Origin: Channa argus
Lineage: Eukaryota
Direction of reading: 5' to 3'
Assembly: GCF_033026475.1 (NCBI RefSeq)
Contig: NC_090210.1
Location: 19,947,894 to 19,995,893, forward strand
Length of the DNA: 48,000 nucleotides
How positions within the stretch are numbered: position 1 is the first letter of the stretch; every line of letters starts with the position of its first letter. Both the position numbers and the translations under genes were made by a program. Below are positions 24,011 to 48,000 of this stretch, one piece after another. The notes beneath the pieces are model-generated. The model made no database searches and was not told the DNA's origin. It was given only the letters and a program-made list of their open reading frames with translations.

Positions 24011-24045
24011 ACACACACATAAATACACACACACACACACACACA
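24011..24045. repeat. (CA)n microsatellite.
   Basis: acacacacat aaatacacacacacacacacacacac is seen directly. Confidence 0.9.
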
Positions 24046-27000
24046 TTTCTCTAATACATTTGTTTTCTATTCGTGTATTGTGAGAATAACCCCAAGCAAG
24101 AATCTGGAGTTTATAATCATCGTGCAGAGATAAACTAACCTCCATGTTTTAACTGAAACTTATATTATCCCACTAATTCAATGAACTGCGCTCAGAAGAA
24201 AAGTCGTGGGAGTTGTAATAATTCCCCAAGTAAACACAATTTTAAAAGCCATTAGCCTGCAGTTAATAAACACCAGAAACAATGTCGAAACAGTTACCTC
24301 TGATACTCGCAGCGGGTTGTATTACCCCGCTGTGTCACTCTTGGGTGTTGCAAAAGAGCGAGCACCTCTGGCCAGGAATAACATTTCTGAACCAAACCAA
24401 AATGAGCTGTGCTTGTAGGGCAGTCACTGTTAATGTCCGTGAAAGGTATGGAAGGACCGAGCAGCTGAGAAAAACAAGTGACGAACCATTTCATCAGCAT
24501 GCTAAGAACACAGGCTCGGCTGTCATGAAACTGCAGTTCAAGCTTGCACGGGATCGGATGTGACAAATTCAGACTGTGGGCTGTTTTTTTAGAAGCATGG
24601 CAACAAATATTTTTGTAAGAGAAAGCTAATTTGTTTCTTGCCTAACACTAATAAGTCCCATATGATCAGAGTTTCTCGGGGACTTTGAACCCTTAATTAA
24701 ATGCATTAAGTCATCTTGCTCTACGTAATGTAAACAAAACCATGTAAAAAGCGATGACTTTAAATCACCCCTCTTGGCCACCGGAGGGAAATGCAGTAAG
24801 GGGTTTTCATTCAAACGATGCTCAAGATTTAATGAAACAAGTAAAAAAAAAAAAACAAAAAAAAAACCACAAACATTTGCATTAACAGGTGTTTCCATTA
24901 GCTGTTTCTTTATTCTGAGGTAAAAGAGCATCATTAGCTCATCTGTAACTTGGTATTCCATCATCGCTGCTTTCAAGATTTTACTGGGTTCTTCTACATG
25001 TGGTGTTTTTTATCTACTGCCATTTGTGGGTTTTTTTGTTGTTGTTGTTGTTTTGGGGGTTTTCTGGTAAAAGAAATGGTTTGACATATTGGGAAATACC
25101 CAAAGTTACACGAAAAGATCAGACCCACCCTCAAGTCTGTGCATAAGTCTGCTGTGAATCATTTTAAGCTGGTTCAACTTGAAAATACAATGTCCCCTTA
25201 TGCCTTGAAACATGAGTTAATTTAGGGTGAATAATTAGTAAAACCTAACAGTGCTGCTGATTTAACTGTTCATGAGAAAAACAAGTTCCATAAATTTTGC
25301 GTATTAAGTTACTGGCCACTGATGCTGAAATTGACTTTGTTTTCTCGTTTTCTCTCTTTGAACAGCCATTTATCCATTTAAGTCGAAGGACGTCAGCTGC
25401 ATATCTTCCTAGTGGAGCCACTCTGTGCCAGAATTGGTACCCAGATGAGGAGTGAGGCTCTACCCAATAACTCTGGTGAAGTCTAAGTGTACGGTGGTGC
25501 AGTAGGTATTGTGTTTCATGCTAACCACACAGCACACAAGCATTAAACTCTCAAACTGTGCAAGCTGCAAAAGTCTGTTAAAATGCTGCTTTTTTTAAAT
25601 AACTTTGACAGGTTGCGGGAGCAGCTGGTAAAGGTGCTGAGTCAAAAGTGAGAAAGTAAGATGAACTTGAATTAAATATTTGTGTATTTTTAGCCCTTTT
25701 TTTGGCCTCATTCAGATGGGGACAGAGAGAGTCACAGAACGTGCTCACTAATTGTCATATGCACGAGGTCCGACAGGACATTAAAGTGGTATATTTTTTT
25801 GTTTTGTGGGTTGAGCCTTTAAATAATGTCTGGTATTAATTATGAGAGCCCCAACCTGGGACAACAAGGCCAGTTAACAGCCAGCGTGCGTCATTGGCCA
25901 AAGTTTGCAAGAGCATCACTCTATACATTATGGAGGGAGATTAAAGAGACAAGTTCCTCGAGACACTGGAACCTAAACACTATAAATGCCATGGAAAAGT
26001 ACAGTATGTGCAGGTGAAATCTTTTGCACTTTGTATGAATTGAAATAACAAATAAAAATCATTAATGTCATTGTTTTGAAAGCAGTCGTTCTGTCCTTTT
26101 AGTGCCCGGAGCCTGTGCATAGTACTGTACAAAGGGTAGCAAAAGGACTAAATAAGTAACAAGTAATGTTAAGCCTCACAGCTTTGGCATTCACATTTTC
26201 ACTTCTAAACCAATGACATATTTTGACACGTTTTTGCAAAGTCAGCAACTGGAAGACAACCCACTAAAACTGAAATGCTTTTGTTATTTTATACCCACGG
26301 TGTGATATTAAGACGAGCGTTTGCTGCCAGGGCAAACAAATATTATAGGGTGAAACAAATCTTGGCTCGCTGCTGTCTCTTGCTCGCATCGCCATGCTCC
26401 ATCTGAGCACTTGCACAAACAATCTCGAGCATCTGGTGAAATAATCGGTGAGTCATTAGTATTGATCAACAACCCGATCAGCCTCCCGAAGGCATATTAT
26501 TGCAGTGAAATGTTTTGTTCGTGTTTATCACCCCTTTAATGGCCACATATATGGGATTAAACGGGGAAAATAATAACGTTAACTGTGATTTCATCCTCAT
26601 TGCACACACCTCTGTGCAATGGGAACTGTGGCCGAGGCCTGCGAGTATAAACCCTGATTCCCCAGCACAAGCTTCATGTCAGTGATACCATGAGACTAAT
26701 GATTAAAACAAGCCTCCTCATCTGTTTGACTTTCAGTAAGCCAGATTTCCACCCCCTGCGCAGCACTTTTCATTCCAGCTACATTACATAAATCAGTGGA
26801 CTGCAGAGGAGTGGAAAGGAAGAGTCCCATAAGTAATAAGGGTGGAAAAATATCACAGTGAACCATTTGGGTAAGAGTTCACTTCGCTATATGGTTGAAT
26901 ATCTATTAATTAGCTTCTTCAATTCCTTGTTGCGCAATAAGAACAAGTTCTTGTGTAATCCAAGATGCTGAGGTCCAATTAGAGATGAGAAGAGCAGTTC

Positions 27001-27229
27001 TTGACTTAAAGGTTTCCTCTATCTAGGGAGGTTTTTCCTCATCTATCATAAACTTCTGACAGCGGCTGCACATCTTCCCTCCACCAAACAATGGCTCATG
27101 TGTCAGCTGGAGTCTCTCTGACTGCTAACAGACAGCGTTAGAGTGATGCCTCATATCACTGGGTTAAGAACGAGCGTCGATCTCATTAATAAAAGAACGC
27201 TAAGTCCTGCAAACGCTTTTGGTTTCTTT

Positions 27230-27560
27230 TCATCTAAAGGACAACACGCATTTCCCGGCAACGTCTTCACCCGCGCTACAGCTCGTCCGTTTTCTGCAGG
27301 TTACAACATTAAAAGTTGCAGTAAACAATCGTCTTACCGTTTGGAGTCCGCTCCTAGCTCACGGCTCGTTGGTAGGTCTTCGCCTCGCGGTGGCTGCACG
27401 CGGATTGTGCTCTCCACTGTCTGCGCGACGCGAGCATCTGTTTTGCTGCGTGCGTGCGTGCGTGCACGCGCACCAGCCCGCACGCACCCGTTTTTCTTTC
27501 CCACTGAATAGAAGATTGGCATGCAGCCAGCGCTGTGCGCGCACGTAGGACTCAAGTGTT
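27230..27560. promoter_or_regulatory. Orphan CpG island, a candidate promoter. The minus strand has a putative non-coding first exon ending in a GTAAGA donor near 27343.
   Basis: Local CpG and GC density is far above the surroundings ('gcgcgacgcgagc...tgcgtgcgtgcgtgcgtgcacgcgcaccagcccgcacgcacccg...gcgctgtgcgcgcacgtagg'). The minus strand reads '...gagcggactccaaacg|gtaagacgattg', a consensus 5' splice site. There is no convincing ORF, which is consistent with a 5'UTR. Confidence 0.4.
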
Positions 27561-27884
27561 TGTGGCAATCAAATGCCCCCTCGATTCAAAACCCTCATTT
27601 GCTTATATTTTACTTCACGTTGCTGGCTAAGGGAAGTTTCTTTGGGCTCACATAAAATCTTGCAGATGTGCACAGGCAAGCGCAATTAGTGGAATCTAAA
27701 ATATTTTGGGGGCTAATGTCTGACTAACGAAATGCTTGAAGAGGTGTGATCCAAGTTGAAGCGCAACAAGTCCAATGTGTGAATCTATACTGAATTTAGT
27801 GCTGTTACCTATAGCAACTTGTTCTGGAACAAAAATTGCAAAACTGGTAAACAGGTTTCAACCAATAAAAGTACTGACATCCAT

Positions 27885-27965
27885 CATATTTATCCTCTTA
27901 TCCTGTTCAGGGTCACGGGGTGGAACCTGCCCTGTCCAGCTGTCATTGAGCGCGAGGTGGGTACT
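27885..27965 (+). repeat. Partial copy of the 'cagggtcacgggg...ccagctgtcatt' interspersed repeat.
   Basis: 'ctcttatcctgttcagggtcacggggtggaacctgccctgtccagctgtcattgagcgcgaggtggg' aligns to the copies at 16030 and 31040. Confidence 0.4.
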
Positions 27966-28443
27966 TTATGGTAATTTATGAGTTAATTGGATTTTGTTTT
28001 AGGAATCTTCAATTGCAAAAAGTAGGAACTAAAGCTAGAAAGTAAATGCAGCTGTGTAAAAGTATATTCAAATAGTAAAACTCCTGCGGAATTGTACTTA
28101 AGTACAGTGCTTATGTGAATGTTAGGTAACACTATGAACCTAGTGAAGCAACAATTCTTCAGTCTCGAATTTGAAGTTAAACAAAATATTTACGGAAAAG
28201 TACATTGCTAAAAACTAAAGTACATAAGTACAATTTTGATGTTCTTGACTGACTTTTTCCAAGTACCATTTTTTTAATATTTTACTTGAGTAGAATTGAA
28301 GGTACTTTGCCAGAGTATTTACATTTTTGCTTTTACTTCACCACATTTGAGAGTATTAGTTTCTAGTTACTTTTCAGATTCAGTTTATTAAAACAAAATA
28401 TAATCTGATAAATGTTGAGATTATTTGGGGCACCCAGCTGTCA

Positions 28444-28723
28444 GTAAATTTTTTTATCCTTTCGGCTTATCCCATGAGTTCAGTGTCGCCACAGCGGATC
28501 ATTGTCTGCATGTTGATTTGGCACAGTTTTTTTGCCCTTCCTGACGCAACCAACCCTCCAACCAACCCTCCCCAATTTCTACCAGGCTTGGACCAGCACT
28601 GCACAGCTGGGGATGGGAATGGCCTCTCTTGCCCAGAGACACTTCGACATATAGCCGGGACCGGGGATCGAACCACTGACACTGTGGTCAACTGCCTTTA
28701 CCAACTGAGCTAGAGCTGCCCCT
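28444..28723 (-). mobile_element. tRNA-derived SINE insertion flanked by an 11-bp target-site duplication 'cccagctgtca' (28433-28443 and 28724-28734).
   Basis: The reverse complement starts 'gcagctctagctcagttggtaaaggcagttgaccacagtgtcagtggttcgatccccggtcccggctatatgtcgaagtgtctctgggcaag...' (tRNA-like head, 'ggttcgatcc' T-arm motif) and ends in the LINE-like tail 'ccaaatcaacatgcagacaatgatccgctgtggcgacactgaactcatgggataagccg...aaaaaaatt'. Identical 11-mers directly flank the element. Confidence 0.7.
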
Positions 28724-29041
28724 CCCAGCTGTCATGAATAAAAAGATTAAAATCAACTCCACATTTACCAGTCGTCGTTTTTGGTTGATTAATTATTCAT
28801 TATTCGCTACCACAAATGCCACATTTTTCACATTTGAAAGTTTGTGGAACACATCTTGAACATTAATGAGATCAACAGCTTCAGGTTCAGGGCTGTTTAA
28901 AATACATTGTTTCCCTCATTATTCTAGCATACTGCAAGGTTGCAACTAACTGTATCATTATCTTATTTTAGACCAGTTGCTCAACTGTGTTTTAAGAAAA
29001 TAATAAATCTCACTACTTGCCAGTGGTAGTGTGGCTTAGGT

Positions 29042-29048
29042 TGTGTGT

Positions 29049-29079
<31 letters not shown>

Positions 29080-29093
29080 GGGGGGGGGGGGGG
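29042..29093. repeat. (GT)n microsatellite followed by a poly-G run.
   Basis: tgtgtgtgtgtatgtgtgtgtgtgtgtgtgtgtgtgtgggggggggggggg. Confidence 0.9.
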
Positions 29094-29099
29094 TAATAA

Positions 29100-29260
29100 A
29101 ACTGCTAGTGGGTCAACAAGTAGACTGGTGGCTTCGTGGTTAGAGCTCCTGTAGGACGCAGGATTTTCAAGGATCAAATCCCAACCCACTCACCAGGTGC
29201 TTTCCTTGAGTTGGACACTAGCTCCCCAGGCAGTATCATCAGCTCCCCACTGCTCCACTG
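29100..29260 (+). repeat. Possible SINE fragment with a tRNA-like head (not an intact tRNA).
   Basis: 'ggtggcttcgtggttagagctcctgtaggacgcaggattttcaaggatcaaatcccaaccc' has D-loop-like ('tggttagagc') and T-arm-like ('ggatcaaatccca') motifs. No 7-bp acceptor stem can form, so it was not called as a tRNA gene. Confidence 0.35.
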
Positions 29261-31039
29261 CACTGAACTTGATTTCTTGTACTAATACAGTGCATTCTCA
29301 CTACTTTACTTATAAGTATATATACAGTTTGAATCTACTGTAGGTTCTTTATGAAAGATTTGTTTGAGTGACATTAATCTCAGTTCAAATTAGGTCTATT
29401 TGCAGTATAATTCTTTTAATAATATCTCTGACCTCCTTTTAACCATATTCCAAATGATATAAAACTGTAAGTCAGCTTAGTTCTATTTCATTGTTTTATC
29501 CAGGACTTAAGTTTTAAGTTAATGGAAGCGGGTTCACAAACATACAAACAATATAGCACCTCAATCTTGAGTAGTGACTATAATTAATTTTCCTTTTGAT
29601 CTTATTATCGTTATTTTATAGAACCTCATATATATCGTAATCTGCTTCTTCTCCTTGATACATTTTAATGGCACCATTACTTGGCTGTTTGATAACCAGC
29701 CAATGCTCTACACAGGTTGAAAAGTTCTCATACAAGGTGTTAAACCTAAAATTCATACAATTCAACAATTTATTCTCTTCTAGCTGCCTCTCCTGAATGG
29801 CTAATAATATTATAACAGCTGACAGTGTCGTTAACACATTTCTAAGTCACACTTACTCACATCTTTCACTTTATGAAATTTTAATTTTTAAGTTTATACC
29901 TGCATTATACTGACTTTTCTGGGTTGTGATCTGCATAATTTCCTATGTCACCTCTGTAATTGTGAGCACTGTTTAATTTATGCAGGGATAAAAAAAATGC
30001 CCCCCTGTCAATGTCTGCACTGACATTCAGGACACGAGGTCGATCACACATTTGCACTCGTCACATCACATCTTTGACGGGATGTATGACATCCCGTCAA
30101 ACATCCGTCCCTTCGTTGCACAGTTAAGATCGACAGGAAAACACAAAGCAGGCAAACAAGCAGACAAACCTTTCATCTATGGATCTGTTTACACGTTGAA
30201 ACTGAAACTTGGACTTATATTTCTGATTCCTGAGATGATGCACAGAGCTGTAAACAAGTCCTCTGCGATGGTGCTCAAAGCAAAACCACATGAGCGAGAA
30301 CAATTCACAAAAGAACATATTCTCCATGAAAAATTGGGACATTGGAGAAGGTTTCATCTCTGGTAACTGGATACAGAAAACAGCTGGTATTGTTCTCTCT
30401 TAGTTGCCATCGTGTCTCTGCCCTTTTCTCTGCCTCCTCAGGTGCAATAATGTCGTTCAGAAACACTGGAAGCTGCCAGAGCAGATATATTGACTTGTGA
30501 AAGATGCACGGGTTTTGCTTATAACCACTTAAACATGGCAGTTTGATGGTGAGCCAACATGAGCAGCACCAAACTCTAAATCTGAAGCAGTTAAACTTAA
30601 TTCAATCATCAATAATTTATCATTTACAGCTGGAGTTTCTCCCTACTGTAACATACATGAGACTTATTTAATGTTTTTATGTATTTATTATAAATTAGGG
30701 TTTTAAAATACATTGGCAAACATTTCCAGTGGCCCCCTGCAGCCCAGGAGTGAACCAACTGTAAATTTTAAGGGTCAGCATGTCATTAACGACATAGGAA
30801 AAAATAACATATATTTATTTTACACAAATTGTCTTTCGACTGACTTGTTTGCAATTTTTGATTGTCTTTTTTGTGAATTACTATGAGATCTGTAGGAAAT
30901 TAACTAAAAGAAAGTTTATCCACAACTATATTGATGATCAATTGTTCCTCTCAACTATTAAGAAAAAAGCCAAACACAGTTGCATCTTCTCAAATGGAAG
31001 AATTTCATTCCTTCCTATCTTCCCTTGTCTATGAGTTGG

Positions 31040-31200
31040 GTCTTAATGTATATTCCATTCATCCATTATCTGTAACTGCTTATCAAGTTCAGGCGACCTG
31101 GGGTTGGAGAGTATCCCAGCTGTCATTAGACGAGAGGCAAGGTGCATCTCAGGGCCAACATAGACAGACAACCATTTTAACTCACGCTCTTATAAATGAT
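31040..31200 (+). repeat. Third copy of the 'cagg(c/t)ga(c)ctgggg...tcccagctgtcatt' interspersed repeat, followed by a poly-C/poly-T tract at 31305-31341.
   Basis: 'tcaagttcaggcgacctggggttggagagtatcccagctgtcattagacgagaggcaaggtgcatctcagggccaacatagacagacaaccatt' aligns with 16040-16150. Confidence 0.4.
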
Positions 31201-32699
31201 GTCTAATTGCCAAAGTTAAAATTGTTGCTTTTGCGGTTTTAGCCTATATGAAATAGAAGCATTGGACGTTTTTGTGAAACAGCTCCTCTGGTGTGTACCA
31301 TAAACCCCCCCCCCCCCCCCCCCCTTTTTTATTTTTTTTTTGATAGTCCAGTTTAGCTGAACAGTTCATCTGCTGCAGCAAAATTTTCAGATAGTCCTAC
31401 AAAGAGTTTTATTAGCCTTTTACTTAGACTGGAGAAAACAAAAGCACACTCATGTGCTCCCGCTTGGGGACATTCAGTAAATTAGTGTGATCAGTCCAAC
31501 ATGATGCTTTATTCTGACTCCAATCAGTGTCTGTGACTGATTTTATTTCAGTGTACCATACAGGTTTCTTGCAGAGGTTTATTTCTTTTTAATTTAGCTG
31601 ATTTAGAAAATGTTACACAACTGTTTAAGCTCACAAATCTTAAGCTTTTCCTAGTTTTATTTTTCTGATTTTCATCATTCATGTATATTTATAACAACAG
31701 TGCCTCCCCATGACTGACTGTGGTAATAGGAGAGTATTTAAAGAGGAACATTTTTATGTGTATATTTGGAACAACAAATGTTATCCATTTCAACTTAGTT
31801 TTGCTTTCAAAATAAGAAAATGTTCTGCAAGACTTAGGTTGCTGATGGTAGAGAAATTACTCAATACTCCACACAACGCAGACAAAAAAGAAAAACAAAC
31901 TATTAAATCAGATGCAAAAGTAACTTTTACAATAACACAGGTTCATATGATGTTAAATAGAGAATTTAATAATGTTTATTATTGTTTTTCTTGCCAAGAG
32001 AACCAAACCTTCGCGACAGCAGTTAACTTTGCAGTTAAAGGTTAGTGCATCCTTTATTTTGGTCGGAGTACTGTAAACATATTCATTTAGAAGTCCTCTA
32101 CTGGCTAGGCCAAATATGTACCCAAATTATAAAAGAAAATTGTATCTAATATATAATGTCTTAAAATGAAAGATTAAATGGAAAGTCGAATGCCCCATCT
32201 CACCGTTATATATACTCTATTTTATATTAATGCATAATGTATGTATGGTGCTAACTATTTTATATTGGATAACATGATTATATTTACTGTGGATTAATAT
32301 TCTCATTTGTTTGGTTTGTAAAAAGTAAGAAAGTAATTTTAGAAACACATACCTCAAAACTAACCAGAGCACCTTCACACAAACCTCAAATTAAATTTTA
32401 AAATAAAAATAAATTATTACTGCATTTTAAAACAAAGACAAAAACGACTTCCTAAGGTTCCACTTTCTGTATTTTGCACATATCAAAGCATCATATTTTA
32501 CAATCTCCTCGTATGTTTTGTATTTCTATTTAAAGTCTACATTTTCATATAAAGTAACATTAACTAAAGCTGTATAAATACTAAGCTAGATAAATAGTAA
32601 CTTATAATAAATATAAATAATTAATAATATAATAAGCTAGAGAAATACTGTGGTGCAGAAACAAAAGGTGGCGTGAAATTGTACTCAAACAATACAAGT

Positions 32700-33700
32700 A
32701 CCTGAAATTTGTTCATTAATAGCATTATAGGCTTTTGGAGGCAGGATCGACTGGCGCAGACAACGGGTGGGCTCGTTTTGATTTACAGGTTATAGTGGTA
32801 TTAGCAGTGATTGTTATCTGACTACTCAATCAAAGACCCCACTCTCTTGAACTGCTCTGTGACCCAAAACCAACGCCTCCTCCCATTGCTGCGCCATCGG
32901 CGGTTAGCATTACGTTAGCTCGGTGGCTAGAAGAAAGCTAGCTCACTGCGGCGGGGGGCTATTCGCTTGTGCTCCGAAGGGACCACCTAAGTAACAATTT
33001 GAGCGATATTACCGAAAGCAAGACATTTTACTCGTTAAGGTCGTGGTGAGTATTTTGTTCCCAGACATTTTTATTTTTATCTTCCTTTTTCTTTTTGGAT
33101 TTTTTTCAACGATGCTTTTTCTATTTTGCGAGTGGACAAAACGTATTGTGCTGGCTAGCGAGGTAGCTAGCTTAGCTGACTTGGAGACTCTCATCCACCT
33201 CAAAACACACAAACGCTGGTTGTGGTTTTTATAAGCACAGCACTTTGGATGCATCCTAGCCCCAATTTCACCCCCTTTTTCATGTTTGTGTAGCTTTATT
33301 TTTGTAGCAGTTATTGTGAAGACTTTTAATTGACGGGACTGATAATTTTTGGCAGACTTTTCGGCCAGTCCACCCGCTAGCTAACTAGCTAGCTAGCAGA
33401 AAAACCCCTTTGGTTTGATAATGGCAGCTTCACCCTTATCCGTGTTTGATTACAGATTATCAACTACAAGATTGTCAGAATTTTGCAGGTCTTATTTTTG
33501 CAAACAATGGAACTGGTCTGGTTGCGTTACATTTTTTTTTATGCTTTTCAATTGGTGGTTGGCTAACTTTAGCCATGCTAGCCGGCTTTGAGCCACCGAG
33601 GCTAACGCAGGGCCTGTGTTTCACAATAAACGTGATGATGACGCTGTCGAGGTCCAGGCGGGTGTGTTGTGGATGGTTTAGGTAATTTTTGATAATCCCC
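32700..33700 (+). promoter_or_regulatory. hnrnpc: CpG island, the likely hnRNP C-like promoter, with a putative non-coding first exon ending at the donor near 33045 ('aaggtcgtg|gtgagtatttt'). A possible alternative 5' exon ends near 33680 ('ggtttag|gtaatt').
   Basis: GC and CpG-rich block ('ggatcgactggcgcagacaacgggtgggctcg...ccattgctgcgccatcggcggttagc...cactgcggcggggggctattcgc') about 4 kb upstream of the ATG exon, on the same strand, with consensus GTGAGT donors. It contains at least 6 GCTAGC palindromes. Confidence 0.45.
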
Positions 33701-36700
33701 AGACTTTGATTTTCCGGTTCGTACTACTCAGTCAGCTTGTTTTTGATGTGGAGTGTTTTTGTTTTTTGTTTTTTCCCCCCCCCACATGATGAAGATTTTG
33801 GAAGTTTTGGACTGCTTCAGTTTTCTTACGTAACGATACAAATACACATAAATGATTAAACGTTTGTTTATCTGAAAGAGTATGTTGGCTCTTTGTGTAC
33901 CAAAATAAACTCTTGCCTTTACGTTCACTCATAGACTGCAGGTATATCCATACATAAACATTTATACCCATAAATCCAGTCGTGAGAATGGGACTGTGCA
34001 TGCATAATGCTTTTTGAAACATCTTTCGTGGGGATACAGGTTAGGACTTTTTATAGTTGGCAATTTAGCGGAAAATTGTCTGAAATGTGTCAGTGTACCC
34101 AATTTTCTGCCACCTATCTGCATTCGAGGCCCATTATTTTATTACTAAGAAAAAATTAATTGTCCACCTCATTACCTGGCTATTAAAATAGTTTTGTCAC
34201 ATTAAATATGGCCTACACTTCAGAAACACTGAATAAATTTAAAGTGGCTCTGTAAGGTCAGAGTCATTCTGCATCCCAGCCTTTATCATATTAAATTTAA
34301 ATTTAGCTTAATTATGTATAAATAGTAAATGCCATGCAACCTTACACAAATTTTAAGTTAGACTATTACTTTTATCAGGTTAATTATAATTAACATGATT
34401 TAACTTACTGGCATTCTATGTTATATGATATGATATGCTATGTATATTAGTTCTTATTTATTCCCAATATGTATATTGTTAATCCATGCAGAGATTCTGT
34501 GCTTAATAAGTCTCAAATAAAGGGCAATAAGTATATAAATTATGTGCCAACACTCCTGCCAGACATTTTCATATGAAATGCAGGTACCTCACTCATCTAG
34601 TCCTACCTGTCCTGCCACTACAATTGGTTAAATTTGACACCTTAGTGATGAGTCTGTGCATTCAATTTCCCTAAACATAAAAGTGCATTTGTTTGTTTTC
34701 AAATGATTTGTCGGAAAATTTCTGTTTATAGATTTTGCACAATGATTTACACACACACATACACACAGTTGAGCTTCAAGTTGATGCTGATGTTGCTCTG
34801 CACAAGCGCTTCACAAACTCCCATCTGGAGTCCTACAACCATATTTCATTAGGGCTACAGATACATGAGCATATGTGGAGCAGTTAGTCTTTTTAATTGA
34901 TTGAATTCTAACAGATTTTGTCACCGTTGTGTTTAGTCCCAGGTTTGTAGCTGCTAGATCTGTATTCTTTTGTGCTAGATATTACACTTAAACAAACATT
35001 TTGAGTTGATTTAGGTTCTAGAATTTTGTAGACCCTTTTTTTTTCTTAAAGATCTATGTCACTGTTTGCCTCCTCACTGAGCCCTGTACACAAATTCAAC
35101 CAGGTAAGATTGGTAAAAGATAACCCTGCTCAGCTTGACTGAGGTGTGTTTTCTGTCGCCTCAGTATAAATCGTGAGGGGCGAAGGTGAAGGTCAAGACA
35201 CCAGCCCAACCAAACTGAGCCCAGCCCACAGTGTCAAACATCAGACAGACGACAGCCCTGCACACAGACGTTATGGAGTGAGTGATGAATGTTAAGCCCC
35301 CTGTCAGCCAGGGGGTTACTGTTAATACCACCATTGTTTTCATGTTTGCTGCATCAGGGCACACAAAGGTTTGGGCTTCACTGAGCACTCACATCCTCCC
35401 TTCTGTCATTTTGAATGATAACATGCTCTGTTCATAGGGTATATGACTTGTAAGTGATACAGTACCAGAGGAGTAAATGTGTTCAGTCTTTAATTCCCTA
35501 GTAAATGTAAAGAAGTCTGGCATTGTTGGTTTTTTTACTAATACAGGTAAATATCCTTTGTTCAGAGGCAATACAGTGTGTTCATACTGTGATGATTTAT
35601 TTATCTACAGCAACGGTTTTCATTAATTGATTAATTTTTAGCCTTTCATTTATTTTTATTTTTAATCCAAATTAGTGCATGCACTGGTTCCAGCTTCTCA
35701 AATGTGAGGATTTTACGATTTGTCTGTCATGACAGTACGTTGAACGTCTCGGACAGTTGGTCAGACAAAACATATTTGACAATATCAACTCTAGGCTTTG
35801 TTTATTGGCAAACTAATGAAAGGGTAAAAAATATCGATTAAGGTAGAGTGTAATATGATGATGAGGCTGGATTTAAGTTAAAATACAAAATTATAAATAA
35901 TTGTTCTCTACTGGGGAAAAAAAAAACTTGCTGTGAGAAATAAAATGCTGCTCCTTCACCATGGCATTCTCCAGACAATGCCACCATGAATGTTTCTTAA
36001 AAAGGTGAGCTACATTCTTCGTATCACTTAAGCTACCAAAGCCTCAACTCAGACACTAAAGGCCGCTTCTCCACTGCTCAAGAAAACAGTAAAAACACAA
36101 TTTTGAAATGCTTTAAGCTCTATTTTTCACACGCTTCAAATATGTAGCGGGTTACATGTTCCATTTCTGTCTCAGGTGGAAGTGAGCGATGGTTAACTTG
36201 AGTTTAACTCTCCAGCTGTTGTCATGCCGACATCCAATAATGAACTGAAAGGTTTTCTTTCATAACACAGCCTCCTGTGGGAAACGCTGGCGATGTTTTA
36301 TTTCAGAAAGAATGTCAAGGCTGAAACTGCAACGTCTGTCAATATTTACCCTTTGAAATGAATCATGAATAACATTTGAGGTCACTTAAAATTTTCTGCA
36401 TGCAATAATCAAACAGTATGTGGACATTACTAATTCTTTTGAAATATGCTAATGTTAAGCCACCTGTTCAGCTGATCATGTTGGAAATAGTTTCTTATAC
36501 ACATGTAATATGATAACTCTAATAGTTATTCGATAGGCGTAGCACCACATCTCATACTGGAAAAGCTAATACAAATAAGCTGAGGATAATAACATTCTGA
36601 CTTGATGTTTCATCTGATACTGTTACAGGTTCTTCTGTATCAACAGTTATTTTCTTGTGGAGTAAAATTACTACTCTAAGTAGTATCAGTTTGAGTTTCA

Positions 36701-37439: not shown

Positions 37440-39170
37440 TTTGCAAATTTGCCTCTTCTTGGTTCCCAAAAACCTTTGCCTATTAAAAGTTTCAGATTTT
37501 TACAAATCTGAAGTGTCAAATGTACTACAAAATTAGAAATGTTGAAAATCTGACACATGGTGTTAGAGAAAATATGTTGCCAAGATCCTGTCCGGATAGA
37601 TCCGTATATAACCCCAATTCTAAAAAAGGTAAAACATTAATAAAAACAGAATGCAATGAACAGTAATTCATATTTTATTCACAATAGAACGTAAACAACT
37701 TATCAGATGTTGAGACTGAGTAATTTTGCCATTTCATAGCAAGAATTAGCTCATTTTGAATTTGATGGCAGCAACACATCTCAAAAAAGTTGGAAGAGGG
37801 GCAACAAAATGCGGGAAAAGCACTTGGTGCGAATGGAGGAGCATTTGAAAACTACTTGGGTTAATTGGCAACAGGTCAGTAACATGGCTGAATGTTAAGA
37901 TGGGCATTCACCATACTGTGCCAAAAGATTGTGGAATAATTTCAGAAAAATGTTCCTCAATGTAAATTGCAAAGACTTTGCAGATCCCACCATATACAGT
38001 ATATAATATCATCAAAGGATTCAGAAAATCTGGAGGAATCTGCATAAGGGACAAGGCCAAAGTCAAAGCTGGAGATGTGTGATCTTGGGGCCCTCAAGTG
38101 GCACTGCATTAAAAACAGGCCTGATTCTCTACCTGACATCACTGCATGGGCTCAGAAACACTTCCAGAAATCACGGTCTGTGAAGACAGTTTGCTGTGCA
38201 ATCCACGAATATAAGTTAAAGCTGTATAATCCAAAGAAGAAGCCATATGTGAACCCAATCCAGAAACTCTGCCATGTTTTCTGTGCCAAATGTCATTTGA
38301 AATGGTCTGAGGCAAAATGGCAAACTGTTCTCTGGTCAGATGAATCAAGACTTTAAATTCTTTTTGGAAACCATGGACGCTCTGTTCAAAAAACAGGCTG
38401 TATCTCTGATGGTATTGGGGAGCATTAGTTCCTATGGTGTGGGCAGCTTACACATCTGGAAAGGAACCATCAATGCTGAAATCTACACAGAGGTTTTAAA
38501 ACAACATCTGCTCCCATCCAGACAATGTCTATTTCATGGAAGGACTTGAATATTTCAGCAAGACAATGCTAATCCACATGCTGCATCCATCATAACAGCA
38601 TGGCTTTACAGGAGAAGAGTCCGGGTGCTGAACTGACCTGCCTGCAGTCCAGACCTTTCACCAGTGGAAAACATTTGGCGCATCATAAGACGAAATAGCC
38701 GACAACAAAAGCCCAGGACTGTTGAGGAGCTAGAATCCCGCATTAGAGAAGAATGGAATAACATTGTTCACCTAAAACTGGTCTCCTTACTTCCCAGATG
38801 TTTACAGACAGTTGTTAAAAGAAGAGGGGATGCTACACAATGGTAAATATCACCCTGTTCCATTATTCCTTTATTGAGATGTGTTGCTGACATCAAATTC
38901 AAAGTGAGCTAATATTTTCCATGAAATCGCAAAATGTCTGTATCAACATCTGATTTATTATGTTCTATTGGGAATAAAATATGGCTGGTGAGATTTGCAA
39001 ATCATTGCATTCAGTTTAAAACGAAAGAGAAAGCAGTTTGCATGGACGCTGTGTTTGCGACACTCTGACCCGCTGACCCCGTGGGTGGAGTTGCCAAGGA
39101 AAAAAAAACACCAAATGATTAAAAATAATTGTGTAGGAGTTTCCAAATTTGCCAGTGTGTAAACAAATAA
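37440..39170 (+). mobile_element. Tc1/mariner-superfamily (Tc1-like) DNA transposon, about 1.7 kb, with a degenerate transposase ORF in the plus orientation. Boundaries are approximate.
   Basis: A multi-frame translation across 37900-38850 gives a Tc1 transposase: '...KWQTVLWSDESR', 'FGNHGR', 'HLLPSRQCLFHGRT', '(W)IFQQDNANPHAASI', 'RVLNWPACSPDLSPVENIWRIIRR', 'PRTVEELESRIREEWNNI', 'LPRCLQTVVKRRGDATQW' (a DD34E-type C-terminus). Stops and frameshifts show it is dead. Inverted-repeat arms: 37640-37700 ('gaatgcaatgaacagtaattcatattttattcacaatagaac') pairs with 38930-39010, and the outer 'tgtttgcaaatttgcc' (37438) pairs with the reverse complement of 'gtttccaaatttgccagtgtgtaaaca' (39140-39170). It is inserted in hnrnpc coding intron 1. 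Confidence 0.7.
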
Positions 39171-43559: not shown

Positions 43560-43850
43560 GCAGATGTTGGTTACAGCCATGTCTGCTTTCAGTCGTCACC
43601 TAGTCAGGTTTGCACTTATAAAGCGCTTTTCTACCTATTGGCACTCGAAACACTTTACACTGCTTCTCATTCACCCATTCGCACTCACAATCACGATGGG
43701 GATTCACCAGGAGCAACTAAGTTGAGGTTCAGTGTCTGGCTCAAGGACACTTCGACATGTGACCAGAGGAGCCGGGGATCGAACCAACAATTGTAGCACT
43801 AGTGGAAAATAAGGCTCTACCATCCTGTGCCACAGTCGCCACGGTCGAGT
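43560..43850 (-). mobile_element. tRNA-derived SINE copy, same family as 18060-18290 and 28444-28723.
   Basis: The reverse complement starts 'gtggcgactgtggcacaggatggtagagccttattttccactagtgctacaattgttggttcgatccccggctcctctggtcacatgtcgaagtgtccttgagccagacactgaacc...'. The 'cacttcgacatgtg...ccggggatcgaacc' core is shared with the other copies. Confidence 0.6.
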
Positions 43851-46739
43851 TGCACAACAAGTGACGTGTTTTCTTTCTTCTTGTGCCAAAAATTTGTTTC
43901 TAAGAGCTACTTACGTTACATATGGGTGACTCCTCAACATTTAGGGACAAATTTCTGTTCTTAAATAAGGAAGCTACCTGCAGAATTTGTTGTATTTAGC
44001 TGTCACACCCTCCCCATAAAAAGGTGGTGTCAGGATTTTTGGTTATGATCTAATCTGCCCTTGTTATGGTTGTGTGCACCGTGACACAATGCTTAGTTCC
44101 TTAAAAGGGTCAGTGAAGTGAAGACAACAGTGAATCATAGCTTGAGCTTTATTATTGTCTTTATCATTATTAATAGTACGTGCGCTTTCTAGTCACGCTT
44201 CAACACATTTACAGTCACAGTCCAAAATATGAATGTGTACATTTTTTAATAGCAGTCTCGAGTTTGCTTTGTTAAATGATGTTGGCTCTTTGTAGAGTTT
44301 TCTTGCCAACGTGTTCTGGAAAACAGCTCAAACTGAGTATGTTGAGTGGGACATTCTGCACAGTCTCAGTACATTTTTGATCATCCTATGCAGAAGAAAG
44401 TATTTTTTTGCTCACTAAAACTAGTAGTATAAACAGTGTTTTTGTTTTTTCTTGTTTTGGATCTCCTTAAATTTGTATCTGATATGAAAATAAGGACATG
44501 TCCACCATGTCTAAATAAATCAGTGTAACATAACTTATTTGTAGTCGACTGACACCTGTCATCTTATCGTTCATGCAACCACTGGCCCCTGGACTCTCAG
44601 GCGTTCTGCAGGATAGACCAGGTGAGGATGCTCAGCAGAAGAAGAAAAGCTGCCAGAGAAAGAGATGAGGAGTTATTCATGAAAGCTTTTCTTTTTGACT
44701 TTCTGTACCTTTTGTTTTCTTCTTTTACTCTGGAAATGCTTCCATTACAGCAAGACTCTATCAGCTGATCATCAGCTGATGAAGATCACATGATGTGATC
44801 ATCGCAATTCAGCAGCTACGAAAGTTTTCCTGCGTAAAAATGTTTTGGCAACAATCAGCCGACCTGTTGTGAACTGACCCAAAGATTCTGGCTGCGTACT
44901 GTCTCTGGTTCCCCTACAACTAGAACAAAAGCATTTTTTCCCAGAAATGTTCCTATTGATTAATCATATCTGCGTGTGACCAGCAAAAGTGACGTGGTTA
45001 TATTTCATGGAGATAATCTTGATAAATTCCTAGAAATTCGCTGCTGTTATTAGTAAATTAGAAGAATGTTTACTATAAACAGCAACAATATTTAATTTGC
45101 TATTAATAAGAGAAATTGAACTTGCTATATATTTTTTAAGTAAAAGGGATAATGGGTTATAAACAGACATCAAAAGCCACGAAGACTAGTTCTTCTTAAT
45201 CACATTGATGCTGCATCTTACATTTTATTTTACAAGTTTAGTTTGTGGAAATGAGACTTATGTTTTAAAGTACAAGTTCCTTAGTTGGTACAATTTTATA
45301 GCATGAATATTAAGATAATTATAATGAAAACTTACTGACATGTGTGAACAAGTATGATTATTCCAATTCATTCTTTTTTTTTTTTTTTTTACAGCAAAAT
45401 CTAATTTTACTGTCTGCTGTGCATGTGACATTAAATTGTGATTATTTCCTTAATTTATAACTAGCAATAATGTGCTGCAATTTGTGGAAAAACAAACTTG
45501 GCCAAAACTTCCAGGCCAACACAACTACAAGGCTGATGCTAGAACTGACGGAGTCCATTGACCGTGTTGTCTGACTTGAGGTGCTGGGGCTCGGATTGGA
45601 CTAGGACATTCCGATAAAGTAGTTTTGCCCAGCATGCACATTAAAACATCGAGCTAGTCGTGAGAATCTGCCTGGTGAATAGAAAGGAATTTAAGATGTG
45701 GTCAGCATCCCCTGACAGAAAGCAGAAGAACATGATGGTCTCCCAGTAACCAGGATGGAGTAAGACCAGTTCCAACTGAAAGCAGTTGATTAGAGGCTAC
45801 GTGGCAATGGGAGCACATGCCAAGCGATTCTGGGGAGATCCATGAGATGACCAGACGTATGAGCTTCTTGATTACGGCCATTCTGAGTCTGGGCCAACGT
45901 GTGGAACAAACCTGTGACACATTTTCCGTGGCTTCAAAACCTCTAGGCAACAACCAGGACCAGGTGCTGTGCAAATCAGCTGAGCTTGGTGCCAGGGCAC
46001 TGTCGCCCCAGTTGTTGTGGGGTGTCATACCCTGTTGCCACTGGTCAGACCTCACTCAGCAGCTTTTCTGCAGCTTCAGCACGCTGAATCTGTAGCAGGA
46101 CTGTTGGGATCTGACTGTCGTTTCGGATTTTTAAAAATCGGTGCATAAGAAGAGACTAGGACAATGTCTGTAGTGCCTTTTAAAACTTCTTACATTACAT
46201 ATTCTCCATCTATAACAATCCAGCCATAACTATCTGTGGTGTGAAAATGGTGAAAAGCAGGTGCTGCTTTGTTTCAGGTTTGTGTAGATACCTAGATCTT
46301 CCACTCTACCTTCTTCTCACGCAGGTGCATAACATGCTACTTGACTGTTGGGTGTTGTCTTTACAGCGTCTTCAAATGCCTATTTTTTTTTTTTTTTTTG
46401 CCCAGACCAAAGGTGACATGAGTTGACACAATCTGCTTTCATTGCACCTAGTTCTTTGTGTGTTTGTGTGCGCTAACAGAACCCATGAAGGTCAAAGCAA
46501 ACACTGACTCAAACATCTAGACATAGAACTTCTGCTGTTACACTTAAGCGAAGGCTACTCCCACTTGGCAAATAAGGCCCCGAAAATTATAATCCACAGC
46601 AATATATGTTTGTGACTTAAGAGTGACTTTAGAGCTGTGCTAATTTCACTTTCTCCATTTCTCTATAATTAGTACCAACTTTTATAGGTCAAGTGGGTTA
46701 TATTAGGTTATATTAAGACAACGTCCCCAAATAATAGGT

Positions 46740-48000
46740 ATATTTACCCTGAGCATGAAGACCTCCACTGGCTCCTTTAGTCGTTGTCATTGTCATCGTC
46801 GGGGTGTTGCTGACCATTGGTGTGGATGTTGCATTGGTAGTGACGTTGGTGGTTTGGTTGGCACTGGGGGTGGGGGGGGAAATCTGAGCTCCGCCTGAAT
46901 AAAATGAGTAAAAAGACTGGGAAGTTAAGGAATGACCTTGATGGCAACCGTGAGGGTGAGCAGTACAGAGTTTCTTTCCCACATTTCCCGTAATCCCACG
47001 TTTTCTCATTTTATATACAAATATGTTAAACAGCAGAATTGTCTTTGCAGGTATAGCAGTAATTCTATATTAAATGTGTGTATTTATATGTAAAATATAC
47101 AGGAAAGCTTTTATTAACTTCTCCTTAGTAAACAACTGGAATTATACAGAAATTCTTTATATAGTTTTTATACTTGATGTAATAAAGAGGCCTAGTTATT
47201 GATATCTATTTTCATATTGCATTTGTAACGTGTTTGAGTCCATCTAGATGTGAATGGGGCTCAAATGTGTTGTATTAGGACACTGAATCCTCACTTCAAA
47301 TATGAAAATGGTTTATTTACCACTGCTCCCATTAGTCATTGTCGTCGTGTTGCTGACCATTGGTGTGGATGTTGCATTGGTAGTGACGTTGGTGGTTTGG
47401 TTGGCATTGGGGGTGGGGGGGGAAATCTGAGCTCCGCCTGAATAAAATGAGTAATAAGACTGGGAAGTTAAGGAATGACCTTGATGGCAGCCGCGATGCT
47501 GAGCAGTACAGAGTCATAATACATTTACACTTTGAGTTTCTTTCCCACATTTCCCGTAATGTTTCTCATTTTATATACAAATATGTTAAACAGCAAAATT
47601 GTCTTTGCAGGTATAGCAGTAATTCTATATTAAATGTGTGTATTTATATGTAAAATATACAGGAAAGCTTTTATTAACTTCTCCTTAGTAAACAACTGGA
47701 ATTATACAGAAATTCTTTATATAGTTTTTATACTTGATGTAATAAAGAGGCTTAGTTATTGATATCTATTTTCATACTGCATTTGTAACGTGTTTGAGTC
47801 CATCTAGATGTGAATGGGGCTCAAATGTGTTGTATTAGGACACTGAATCCTCACTTCAAATATGAAAATGGTTTATTTACCACTGCTCCCATTAGTCATT
47901 ATCGTCGTGTTGCTGACCATTGGTGTGGATGTTGCTTTGGTAGTGACGTTGCTGGCTGGGATGGTTAAATCCACAGGATCAGTTTTCAGGGACAGGGTGA
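46740..48000. repeat. Tandem array of long repeats with a period of about 543-560 bp. There are at least 2.3 units in the window, the array runs off the window end, and it contains cassette-exon-like segments on the minus strand.
   Basis: 'gttgctgaccattggtgtggatgttgcattggtagtgacgttggtggtttggttggca' recurs at 46806, 47349 and 47909. The blocks 47040-47330 and 47600-47890 are almost identical. The units differ by a 30-nt indel and a 23-nt insertion. Confidence 0.85.

What the first reader, a model, noticed from the sequence alone, without database searches (positions are those of the whole stretch)
46740..48000. Tandem 550-bp repeat array in which each unit carries a frame-preserving, N-glycosylation-rich mucin-like cassette exon (minus strand)
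On the minus strand each repeat unit contains a segment bounded by a good acceptor ('tactcattttattcag|GCGGAGCTCAG...') and a GTAAAT donor ('...CTCAGG|gtaaatat' in unit 1; '...GCAGTG|gtaaataaac' in unit 2). Unit 1 segment is 46748-46894 (147 nt); unit 2 is about 47321-47437 (117 nt). Both lengths are multiples of 3 and share the same phase (2 nt in, 1 nt out), so copies can be spliced to each other or skipped without frameshift. The 30-nt difference between copies is also a multiple of 3. Encoded peptide is (G)GAQISPPTPSANQTTNVTTNATSTPMVSNTPTMTMTTTKGASGGLHAQ, which is Thr/Ser/Pro-rich with three N-x-T sequons in 12 residues. That is a mucin-like, heavily glycosylated extracellular stalk. This looks like a VNTR-type exon array of an undescribed mucin-like or sialomucin-like gene whose other exons lie outside the window (possibly 45.5-46.1 kb or beyond 48 kb), rather than a plain satellite.
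Basis: partly seen in the sequence, partly recalled or inferred. Interest (0 to 1): 0.65.

Follow-up and report, generated by a model that had tools for sequence, protein, structure and literature searches.

The report
Duplicated stalk exons of mucin-like gene
Three tandem copies of a small exon probably encode the sugar-coated stalk of an unnamed fish surface protein that looks GPI-anchored; the gene appears real and conserved in position, but exon duplication of this kind is ordinary.

Summary
Window 46741-47964 is a local tandem repeat with periods of 543 and 560 bp and 2.2 copies. Each copy carries a minus-strand segment with an AG acceptor, a GTAAAT donor, one shared open frame and phase 1 in/1 out.

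Taken alone this is weak: 46-73% of composition-matched shuffles also have an open frame. Comparative evidence settles it.

- The region lies tail-to-tail with an hnRNPC-like gene.
- At the same position Channa striata, Oryzias melastigma and an unidentified fish contig carry a gene built as signal peptide, Ser/Thr/Asn-rich stalk, then a 17-codon hydrophobic last exon.
- The window holds that last exon at 44649-44597 (AFLLLLSILTWSILQNA*). It is in phase with exon A and is the best six-frame match in all 48 kb.
- Across the predicted junction the product is 78% identical to Channa KAK2822729.1, annotated only as a hypothetical protein.

So these are stalk exons of an uncharacterised mucin-like protein that is probably GPI-anchored.

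Three points are not supported. It is not a long VNTR array, since there are only three exon copies. The tail is not a transmembrane sialomucin tail. The 45.5-46.1 kb stretch is intron, not exon.

Splicing of copies B and C, and any cassette use, remain untested. I rate it a new member of a known kind, of modest interest.

The parts
47881..48000 (-). Stalk exon copy C, partial because it is cut by the window end. Peptide: ..TLSLKTDPVDLTIPASNVTTKATSTPMVSNTTIMTNGSS, donor AGCAGTG|gtaaataaac, leaves in phase 1.
   Evidence: Open in the shared frame to the window edge. The 70-nt core is 87% identical to exon A's. By my own reading, its 5' part lines up in frame with the start of the Channa stalk exon. 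The acceptor was not seen, so it lies beyond 48000 or the exon is longer.
47438..47880 (-). Intron between copies C and B, 443 nt.
   Evidence: Matches the B-A intron apart from about 10 substitutions and two indels of 6 and 23 nt.
47321..47437 (-). Stalk exon copy B, 117 nt, phase 1 in and 1 out: (G)GAQISPPTPNANQTTNVTTNATSTPMVSNTTTMTNGSS. It is a hybrid: the 5' part resembles A, and the 3' part and donor resemble C.
   Evidence: One mismatch to A in the 5' 47 nt, two mismatches to C in the 3' 70 nt. Acceptor ttattcag|GC, donor AGTG|gtaaat.
46895..47320 (-). Intron between copies B and A, 426 nt.
   Evidence: Its last ~30 nt and the acceptor resemble the acceptor regions of the Channa and L005 stalk exons.
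46748..46894 (-). Stalk exon copy A, 147 nt, phase 1 in and 1 out: (G)GAQISPPTPSANQTTNVTTNATSTPMVSNTPTMTMTTTKGASGGLHAQ. It carries the candidate GPI attachment (omega) site, G-A-S-G-G.
   Evidence: Its 3' end and donor align with the end of Channa stalk exon 2 (blastn 85%, E 3e-13). All four exonic gaps in the local alignment are multiples of 3. It has the same phase and the same '..H..G|gtaaa' end as L005 exon 5 and the medaka exon.
44650..46747 (-). Last intron, 2098 nt.
   Evidence: The homologous Channa intron is 222 nt. Only short islands at 46147-46194 and 46737-46798 align, so the rest is lineage-specific insertion. The ORFs there have no Pfam hit.
44597..44649 (-). Terminal coding exon, entered in phase 1: (A)FLLLLSILTWSILQNA then TGA. 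It forms the hydrophobic tail of a GPI-anchor-type C-terminal signal.
   Evidence: It has the only strong polypyrimidine tract (17 of 20 pyrimidines) among the phase-1 candidate acceptors between 43.0 and 46.7 kb. It is the top six-frame match in the whole window to the L005 last exon: score 35 against 23 for the next best, and 0 of 20 block shuffles reach 35. Together with its 3' flank it is 78% identical to Channa over 347 nt, E 4e-75. BLASTP across the junction to KAK2822729.1 gives 21/27 identities, E 5e-8.
43847..44596 (-). Probable 3' UTR, with an AATAAA at 44153..44148. It converges on the 3' end of the hnRNPC-like gene on the plus strand. The extent is tentative.
   Evidence: Collinear with the sequence downstream of the Channa stop codon (66-78% identity). 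Sequence read.

Best explanation
The repeat consists of three tandem copies (C, B, A) of the stalk exon of a small, uncharacterised teleost cell-surface glycoprotein gene on the minus strand. Each copy is duplicated together with its flanking intron. The gene lies tail-to-tail with an hnRNPC-like (zgc:55733-type) gene.

Shown:
- The exon is symmetric (phase 1/1), so copies join in frame.
- Exon A joins in frame to a 17-codon terminal exon at 44649-44597.
- Orthologous genes exist at the same position in three other fish sequences.

Inferred:
- The protein is signal peptide (encoded beyond 48 kb), possibly a Cys-containing ectodomain, a Thr/Ser/Asn/Pro-rich stalk carrying N- and O-glycans, and a C-terminal GPI-attachment signal. 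That signal would be small omega residues (K-G-A-S-G-G), a short polar spacer (LHAQA) and a 13-residue hydrophobic tail.
- The tail would be cleaved and replaced by a GPI anchor, leaving a glycosylated stalk on the outer membrane leaflet.
- Duplication lengthened the stalk from about 49 residues to at least 127.
- Copy B is a recent C/A hybrid made by unequal crossing-over between two older copies.

Channa and medaka lengthened the same stalk differently, by repeats inside a single exon.
For: (1) Anatomy. Canonical AG and GTAAAT sites, a shared frame, phase 1/1. B is 5' A-like and 3' C-like.

(2) Orthologous locus.
- Window 18.4-37.4 kb is collinear with O. melastigma L001.
- Window 33.0-43.15 kb is collinear with L005.
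- Window 36.1-46.8 kb aligns by blastn with Channa L010 at 66-85% identity.

(3) In all three loci a gene lies downstream of the hnRNPC-like gene on the opposite strand.
- Signal-peptide exons are similar: MGRALILLIS.. in medaka, MERGLILLVS.. in L005, MEGRSILLLT.. in Channa.
- Each has a Ser/Thr-rich exon ending in phase 1 at G|gtaaa.
- The Channa exon (468 nt) and the medaka exon (1131 nt) are open far beyond chance: 77/2000 and 0/2000 shuffles.

(4) Terminal exon. It was found by a phase-aware scan. It is the best match in the window to the L005 last exon. Comparable matches occur only in the loci that carry this gene: score 55 in L010 and 35 in L005, against 24 or less elsewhere.

(5) An exhaustive HMMER search with the spliced product returns Channa KAK2822729.1. 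The match runs to the C-terminus, E 7.5e-5. BLASTP gives 21/27 identical across the exon A-terminal exon junction.

(6) All four gaps between exon A and the Channa exon are multiples of 3, whereas the adjacent intron gaps are 1 and 7 nt.

(7) The phase-1 acceptor 'tattcag|GCGG' resembles the L005 exon 5 acceptor 'tattcag|GTGG', which also follows a phase-1 donor.
Against: - No transcript evidence for this species. Use of copies B and C as exons rests only on splice-site consensus and frame.
- The open frames in the window segments are not significant by themselves.
- The three substitutions between copies are all non-synonymous, so there is no sign of purifying selection.
- The 5' end of the gene (signal peptide, any ectodomain, acceptor of exon C) lies outside the window.
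- GPI anchoring is inferred by eye from the rules for such signals. No predictor was run.
- The Channa protein is a computed gene model, and its N-terminal part looks mis-framed. The matching junction is therefore a prediction agreeing with a prediction.
- Word-indexed protein searches found nothing. A control showed that tool cannot see these low-complexity proteins.
Confidence: 0.78

Rival explanations
1. Only copy A, the direct counterpart of the single stalk exon of other fish, is a working exon. Copies B and C would then be young duplicates that are skipped, used only occasionally, or part of a gene decaying in this species.
For: - The duplication is recent: the introns match apart from about 10 substitutions and two indels.
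- All three exonic differences change an amino acid.
- Open frames of this size and composition arise by chance.
- A second AG 11 nt inside exons A and B (gctcag|ATTTCC, phase 0) aligns with the phase-0 acceptor used in Channa. A signal-peptide exon could therefore splice straight to one copy.
Against: - B and C keep intact acceptor and donor sites and the shared frame.
- The 12- and 18-nt differences between copies preserve the frame.
- Copies C and B lack the 18 nt encoding GGLHAQ. If those residues form part of the inferred GPI signal, only the last exon would need them.
- Copy C's 5' part continues open and aligns in frame with the start of the Channa stalk exon (my reading).
Confidence: 0.15
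2. A plain non-coding tandem duplication or minisatellite whose CA-rich composition leaves a frame open by chance. In that case there is no gene here.
For: - Composition-matched shuffles often have an open frame.
- No protein homologue was found by the word-indexed search.
- The genomic ORF is not in the gene index.
Against: - Orthologous genes with signal peptide, stalk and hydrophobic tail occur at the same syntenic position in three other fish sequences.
- An in-phase terminal exon is conserved with Channa at E 4e-75.
- There is a protein hit across the splice junction.
- The unit is not found elsewhere in the window.
- The negative protein search is uninformative, because its control failed.
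Confidence: 0.04
3. The C-terminal hydrophobic stretch is a conventional membrane anchor, making this a tail-less type I sialomucin, rather than a GPI-attachment signal.
For: - A hydrophobic C-terminus could in principle stay in the membrane.
- No GPI predictor or experiment was available.
Against: - The hydrophobic run is only 13-15 residues and is followed by 2-3 residues and a stop.
- There is no basic stop-transfer or cytoplasmic segment.
- It is preceded by small residues (G-A-S-G-G; S-G-A in L005) and a short polar spacer.
- This arrangement is conserved in the window, Channa and L005.
Confidence: 0.12
4. The extra copy is an assembly artefact, with two alleles or collapsed reads laid out in tandem.
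For: The copies are very similar (99% over 300 nt), and the array abuts the window end.
Against: - The copies differ by substitutions and by 6-, 23-, 12- and 18-nt indels.
- The three exon copies have distinct 5' or 3' ends. That is not what duplicated alleles would look like.
Confidence: 0.03

Closest known systems
KAK2822729.1, hypothetical protein Q5P01_022794 of Channa striata (UniRef A0AA88S448), with the unannotated orthologues in Oryzias melastigma WKFB01000293.1 and in ENA contig ERZ13706909 NODE_6907
   Same: - Same genomic position, tail-to-tail with the hnRNPC-like gene.
- Same last exon: 17 codons, entered in phase 1.
- Same stalk-exon end, ..KGASG.LH.Q G|gtaaata.
- 78% identity over the last 27 residues.

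   Different: - Channa and medaka encode the stalk in one exon (468 nt and 1131 nt) expanded by internal repeats. The window uses three exon-plus-intron units.
- In Channa and medaka the signal-peptide exon splices directly to the stalk in phase 0.
- The ENA contig has three extra exons for a ~165-residue Cys-containing domain.
- None of these genes has a name or a known function.
Small GPI-anchored mucin-type glycoproteins such as CD24 and CD52 (from general knowledge)
   Same: Same working plan: a signal peptide, a short Ser/Thr/Asn-rich and heavily glycosylated peptide with little or no folded domain (as in the Channa and medaka forms), and a C-terminal GPI signal.
   Different: No sequence relationship was shown or could be shown with such short, low-complexity sequences. 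The stalk here is longer and its length evolves by repeat or exon duplication. Membership is not claimed.
   Same: A Thr/Ser/Pro-rich extracellular region dense in N-x-S/T sequons.
   Different: Those proteins have a full membrane span and a cytoplasmic tail. This product stops 3 residues after a 13-residue hydrophobic run. No homology was detected.
VNTR mucins such as MUC1, and exon-duplication arrays built from symmetric phase 1-1 exons (from general knowledge of exon shuffling)
   Same: The length of a glycosylated spacer changes through tandem repetition. A symmetric exon allows in-frame duplication and skipping.
   Different: VNTR mucins repeat within one large exon, tens of times, and vary between individuals. 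Here there are only three copies, each with its own intron, and nothing is known about polymorphism.

Membership tests
Orthologue of Channa striata Q5P01_022794 (unnamed teleost gene) | Same genomic neighbourhood and orientation, convergent with the hnRNPC-like gene | tested here: met
   blastn collinearity of window 36.1-46.8 kb with L010. The RRM_1 gene lies on the opposite strand immediately downstream.
Orthologue of Channa striata Q5P01_022794 (unnamed teleost gene) | Sequence similarity of coding parts, with the same exon boundaries and phases | tested here: met
   HMMER E 7.5e-5 against 1.84 billion proteins. BLASTP 21/27 identical across the junction. Terminal exon plus flank E 4e-75, and end of exon A E 3e-13. 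Identical phases.
Mucin-like / sialomucin-type extracellular stalk | Ser+Thr+Pro-rich, low-complexity region with dense glycosylation motifs | tested here: met
   T 27%, S 13%, P 9%, N 10%; 11 N-x-S/T sequons in 127 residues.
Mucin-like / sialomucin-type extracellular stalk | N-terminal signal peptide that directs the protein to the secretory pathway | not testable with these tools
   The 5' end of the gene lies beyond 48000. The orthologues do have a signal-peptide exon.
Mucin-like / sialomucin-type extracellular stalk | Actual O- and N-glycosylation of the protein | not testable with these tools
   Needs biochemistry.
Transmembrane sialomucins (CD164 / endomucin / CD34 type) | Single membrane span of about 20 or more residues followed by a cytoplasmic tail | tested here: not met
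   The product ends AFLLLLSILTWSILQNA-stop, with no cytoplasmic segment. The same holds in Channa and L005.
GPI-anchored proteins | C-terminal signal made of small omega, omega+1 and omega+2 residues, a short polar spacer, and a hydrophobic tail reaching almost to the C-terminus | tested here: met
   By inspection: window K-G-A-S-G-G / LHAQA / FLLLLSILTWSIL-QNA; Channa KGASGA / LHPQA / LLLLLSILTVSVL-QKA; L005 M-S-G-A / DRPHA / VLLLLTVLTVPLML-RA. No dedicated predictor was available.
GPI-anchored proteins | Demonstrated lipid anchor (PI-PLC release or mass spectrometry) | not testable with these tools
   Needs an experiment.
VNTR coding array | Many head-to-tail units | tested here: not met
   2.2 units, i.e. 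three exon copies. The repeat ends after exon A, and copy C diverges from it at about 47965. Further copies beyond 48 kb cannot be excluded, but the sequence does not suggest them.
VNTR coding array | Copy number varies between individuals | not testable with these tools
   No population data.
Cassette (alternatively spliced) exons | Symmetric phase, so that skipping keeps the frame | tested here: met
   Exons B and A enter with 2 nt and leave with 1 nt, and their lengths are 117 and 147 nt.
Cassette (alternatively spliced) exons | Transcripts both with and without the exon | not testable with these tools
   No RNA data for this species. Skipping exon A would remove the omega-site and spacer, so A is probably constitutive (inference).
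DOMON-domain proteins (FRRS1 / FRRS1L type). This is only a recollection, prompted by the Cys motif of the extra domain in the L005 orthologue. | Match to the DOMON profile or fold | tested here: not met
   No Pfam family at E up to 10. No PDB sequence match. The domain is not encoded in the window.

The most novel reading that the evidence does not exclude
The stalk of this unnamed, probably GPI-anchored glycoprotein is a hotspot of independent length change in teleosts. Different lineages reach it by different mutational routes: exon-plus-intron unit duplication here, about 60-nt in-exon repeats in Channa, and 24-nt in-exon repeats in medaka. A Cys-containing ectodomain is also present or absent between lineages. 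Such a pattern would fit a fast-evolving surface-coat or decoy molecule under diversifying selection. The 543-560-bp unit might also vary in copy number within the species.
Probability: 0.3. Interest if true: 0.45.

Novelty: new member of a known kind. Interest (0 to 1): 0.3.

Why it matters
It turns a stretch that looks like a minisatellite into four coding exons of a gene that current annotation either misses or mis-frames; the Channa model is called 'hypothetical' and starts in the wrong frame. It is also a clean, small example of a symmetric exon being duplicated with its intron to lengthen a glycosylated stalk, in a gene whose orthologues did the same by in-exon repeats. The gene's function is unknown, so the practical value is mainly better annotation, plus a candidate for studies of fast-evolving fish surface glycoproteins.

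Tried and rejected
- Word-indexed protein search with the spliced stalk peptide gave no hit. I then ran the medaka orthologue's ORF as a control. Its gene model is in that collection, yet it also gave no hit. That tool therefore cannot see these low-complexity proteins, and I discard both negatives.
- Exact look-up of the genomic ORF 46713-47009(-) found nothing on record.
- First scan for a downstream transmembrane exon (at least 22 residues, 19-residue hydrophobic window) returned only 44775(-), which has a basic stretch before the hydrophobic run. I rejected it. A second scan for short terminal exons found 44649.
I rejected them as exons.
- Loci L002, L003 and L004 (Cebidichthys, Champsocephalus, Scleropages) are a paralogous hnRNPC gene next to an FH2-domain gene and lack the mucin-like gene.
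- L007 ends at the RRM exon. L008 and L009 show no homologue downstream.
- The medaka terminal exon could not be checked because it falls in an N gap at 19760-24260.
- Pfam and PDB searches of the extra Cys-containing domain of the L005 orthologue gave nothing. The DOMON idea stays an untested recollection.
- A Ka/Ks test between copies is not feasible with only three differences.
- Two literature searches (GPI/DOMON/teleost; Channa genome annotation) returned nothing relevant.
Full report
**Observation.** On the minus strand the window ends with three related segments.
- Exon C runs from the window edge at 48000 to 47881.
- Exon B is 47437..47321 (117 nt).
- Exon A is 46894..46748 (147 nt).
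- The introns between them are 443 and 426 nt.

The repeat finder gives start-to-start spacings of 543 and 560 bp. It finds 300 nt of intron at 99%, 180 nt at 95%, and a 70-nt exonic core present three times at 96% and 87%. Exons B and A begin at 'ttattcag|GCGGAGCTCAG'. C and B end at 'AGCAGTG|gtaaataaac', and A ends at 'CTCAGG|gtaaatat'. All three are open in one frame, entering with 2 nt and leaving with 1 nt. The spliced product has 11 N-x-S/T sequons in 127 residues and is 49% Thr+Ser+Pro. The unit occurs nowhere else in the 48 kb. The sequence after exon A's 'gtaaata' is unique, and copy C leaves the repeat at about 47965.

**Internal evidence is weak.** The strand is rich in C and A, so stop codons are rare. 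Between 46% and 73% of mononucleotide shuffles of each segment have at least one open frame. Only three substitutions separate the exon copies (K/N, I/T, N/S) and all change the amino acid. Exon A is longer by 12 + 18 nt, and the intron indels are 6 and 23 nt. This is compatible with coding but does not prove it.

**Context.**
- The window is teleost DNA.
- 407-1577 (+): a LINE reverse-transcriptase fragment.
- 9789-10733 (-): a GLIS-type zinc-finger exon.
- About 26.7 to 43.1 kb (+): an hnRNPC-like gene. Its RRM exon is at about 37.1-37.35 kb and an acidic exon lies at about 41.35-41.5 kb.

The repeat lies about 3.6 kb beyond the 3' end of the hnRNPC-like gene, on the opposite strand.

**Orthologous loci.** I used hnRNPC-like proteins as anchors.
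- *O. melastigma* (L001). Conserved blocks run collinear from window 18.4-37.4 kb to L001 0.7-18.8 kb. About 6 kb past the RRM exon, on the opposite strand, lies a signal-peptide exon (MGRALILLISTVILFVSWSVKAQ). A 1131-nt Ser/Thr/Pro-rich exon follows and ends '..SASCAMPHH G|gtaaaa' in phase 1. The rest is lost in an assembly gap.
- *Fish contig in an ENA metagenome assembly* (L005). It is collinear with window 33.0-43.15 kb. It carries a coherent six-exon gene on the opposite strand. The exons encode a signal peptide (MERGLILLVSALMAFMAAGVQG) and then, over three exons, a Cys-containing domain of about 165 residues. A 146-nt Thr-rich exon follows, entered and left in phase 1 ('tattcag|GTGG ... 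TTTMSGADRPH G|gtaaac'). The last exon encodes AVLLLLTVLTVPLMLRA-stop.
- *Not orthologous.* Loci next to an FH2-domain gene (L002-L004) are a paralogue and lack this gene.

**Terminal exon in the window.** I scanned 43.0-46.7 kb on the minus strand for AG sites that continue exon A's phase into a short hydrophobic ORF. Only one site had a strong polypyrimidine tract: 'ctcatctctttctctggcag|' at 44649, encoding (A)FLLLLSILTWSILQNA-stop. It has the same length and phase as the L005 last exon. I also scored the L005 17-mer plus stop against all six frames of the whole window. This site scores 35, the next best scores 23, and 20 block-shuffled windows reach at most 31. The reverse scan finds comparable matches only in L005 (35) and Channa (55). 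Paralogous and other loci score 24 or less.

**Protein-level confirmation.** The word-indexed protein search found nothing. A control with the medaka ORF failed as well, so those negatives carry no weight. The exhaustive HMMER search with the 144-residue spliced product returned a 126-residue protein aligned to its very C-terminus, with E 7.5e-5 against 1.84 billion sequences. It is KAK2822729.1, hypothetical protein Q5P01_022794 of *Channa striata*. BLASTP gives 21 of 27 identities for KGASGGLHAQAFLLLLSILTWSILQNA against KGASGALHPQALLLLLSILTVSVLQKA. That stretch spans the predicted exon A-terminal exon junction.

**The Channa locus (L010).** The gene is convergent with an RRM_1 gene. The locus aligns with the window by blastn from 36.1 to 46.8 kb. 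This includes the terminal exon plus 3' flank (78% over 347 nt, E 4e-75) and the end of exon A with its donor (85%, E 3e-13). Reading the Channa DNA gives three exons:
- signal peptide MEGRSILLLTLLMVFGTVDTQ;
- one 468-nt Ser/Thr/Asn-rich exon with internal repeats, ending '..TTKGASGALHPQ G|gtaaatacacc';
- a terminal exon after a 222-nt intron.

The window's last intron is 2098 nt, and most of it, including 45.5-46.1 kb, has no Channa counterpart. The Channa and medaka stalk exons are open far beyond chance: 77/2000 and 0/2000 shuffles. All four gaps between exon A and the Channa exon are multiples of three, whereas the neighbouring intron gaps are 1 and 7 nt.

**What it is and how it probably works.** The segments are stalk exons of a small secreted-pathway glycoprotein.
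- The C-terminus has small residues (G-A-S-G-G), a five-residue polar spacer, 13 hydrophobic residues, three more residues and a stop. This arrangement is conserved in Channa and L005. It is the textbook layout of a GPI-attachment signal, not of a membrane span with a cytoplasmic tail. This step is inferred, since no predictor or experiment was available.
- The stalk would carry many N-glycans and probably O-glycans.
- Because the exon is symmetric (phase 1/1), duplicating it with its intron adds stalk length in frame.
- Copy B matches A in its first 47 nt (one mismatch). It matches C in its last 70 nt and in the following intron (two mismatches). It is therefore best read as the product of a recent unequal crossover between two older copies.
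- Copies C and B lack the 18 nt that encode GGLHAQ in A. Those residues are part of the presumed GPI signal region, which only the last stalk exon would need.
- The acceptor 'tattcag|GCGG' resembles the L005 acceptor that follows a phase-1 donor. A second AG 11 nt downstream aligns with the phase-0 acceptor used in Channa. Alternative entry into the exon is therefore conceivable.

**Limits.**
- No transcript data exist here for this species.
- Inclusion of B and C, any cassette behaviour, the 5' exons, and whether this species keeps the Cys-containing domain of L005 all remain open.
- That domain has no Pfam or PDB sequence match.
- My impression that its first motif recalls DOMON domains is a recollection only.

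**Comparison and novelty.**
- The nearest relative is an unnamed hypothetical protein.
- In how it works, the nearest analogues are small GPI-anchored mucin-type glycoproteins such as CD24. No membership is claimed.
- Transmembrane sialomucins fail on the tail.
- VNTR mucins differ in repeating within one exon, which is what the Channa and medaka orthologues do.
- Exon duplication of a symmetric exon is a well-known process.

I therefore rate this a new member of a known kind, of modest interest.

Noticed in passing
window 18400-35400; for example 24185-24560, 26650-26890, 29990-30400, 33000-33720 and 35100-35390: A series of blocks conserved and collinear with medaka L001 and fish contig L005. 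They hit in several frames on both strands, so they are probably conserved non-coding elements or UTR exons upstream of, or inside the first intron of, the hnRNPC-like gene. The block at about 26.7 kb also matches the start of the paralogous gene in L003, so it is probably its 5' UTR exon.
   Followed up: partly
window 9789-10733 (-): A 314-codon open exon encoding a GLIS1/GLIS3-type C2H2 zinc-finger region (Pfam zf-C2H2_15, E 1e-18). The rest of that gene was not mapped.
   Followed up: no
window 407-1577 (+) and 38075-38356 (+): Transposon remnants. The first is a LINE reverse-transcriptase fragment (RVT_1, E 8e-15). The second is a weak Tc1/Tc3 transposase HTH match (E 0.0012) inside an hnRNPC-like intron.
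   Followed up: no
window 44666-46146, especially 45480-46130: A GC-richer insertion in the last intron of the mucin-like gene. It has 117-codon and 92-codon ORFs on opposite strands and no Pfam match. The homologous 222-nt Channa intron lacks it. It may be a degraded mobile element.
   Followed up: partly
L010 10001-15183 (Channa striata CM065185.1): The deposited gene model KAK2822729.1 appears mis-framed at its N-terminus. Residues 'NGRKIDPVAHSVDGVWDRGYT' are the +1 reading of the exon that in frame 0 encodes a good signal peptide, MEGRSILLLTLLMVFGTVDTQ. The model also skips part of the repeat exon. A three-exon model of about 194 residues fits better.
   Followed up: partly
L005 10891-12902 (-), compared with L010 and L001: The orthologue in the unidentified fish contig has three extra exons for a Cys-containing domain of about 165 residues between the signal peptide and the stalk. 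In Channa and medaka the signal-peptide exon splices straight to the stalk. An ectodomain has therefore been lost or gained between lineages. The domain has no Pfam or PDB sequence match.
   Followed up: partly
L001 24650-25780 (-): The medaka orthologue's stalk exon contains dozens of 24-nt repeats encoding TTVSTTSP. Channa uses repeats of about 60 nt encoding STSGNNSTPAASTSMSA. These are three different ways of lengthening the same stalk.
   Followed up: partly
method note: The word-indexed homology search returned nothing even for a query whose own gene model is in the collection. Strongly biased Ser/Thr-rich proteins appear to be invisible to it, whereas the exhaustive HMMER search did find the orthologue.
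   Followed up: yes
L010 1-9363 (+): In Channa the gene upstream of the mucin-like gene encodes a 1346-residue product with an ApoL domain. Whether the same neighbour lies beyond 48 kb in this window's species is unknown.
   Followed up: no
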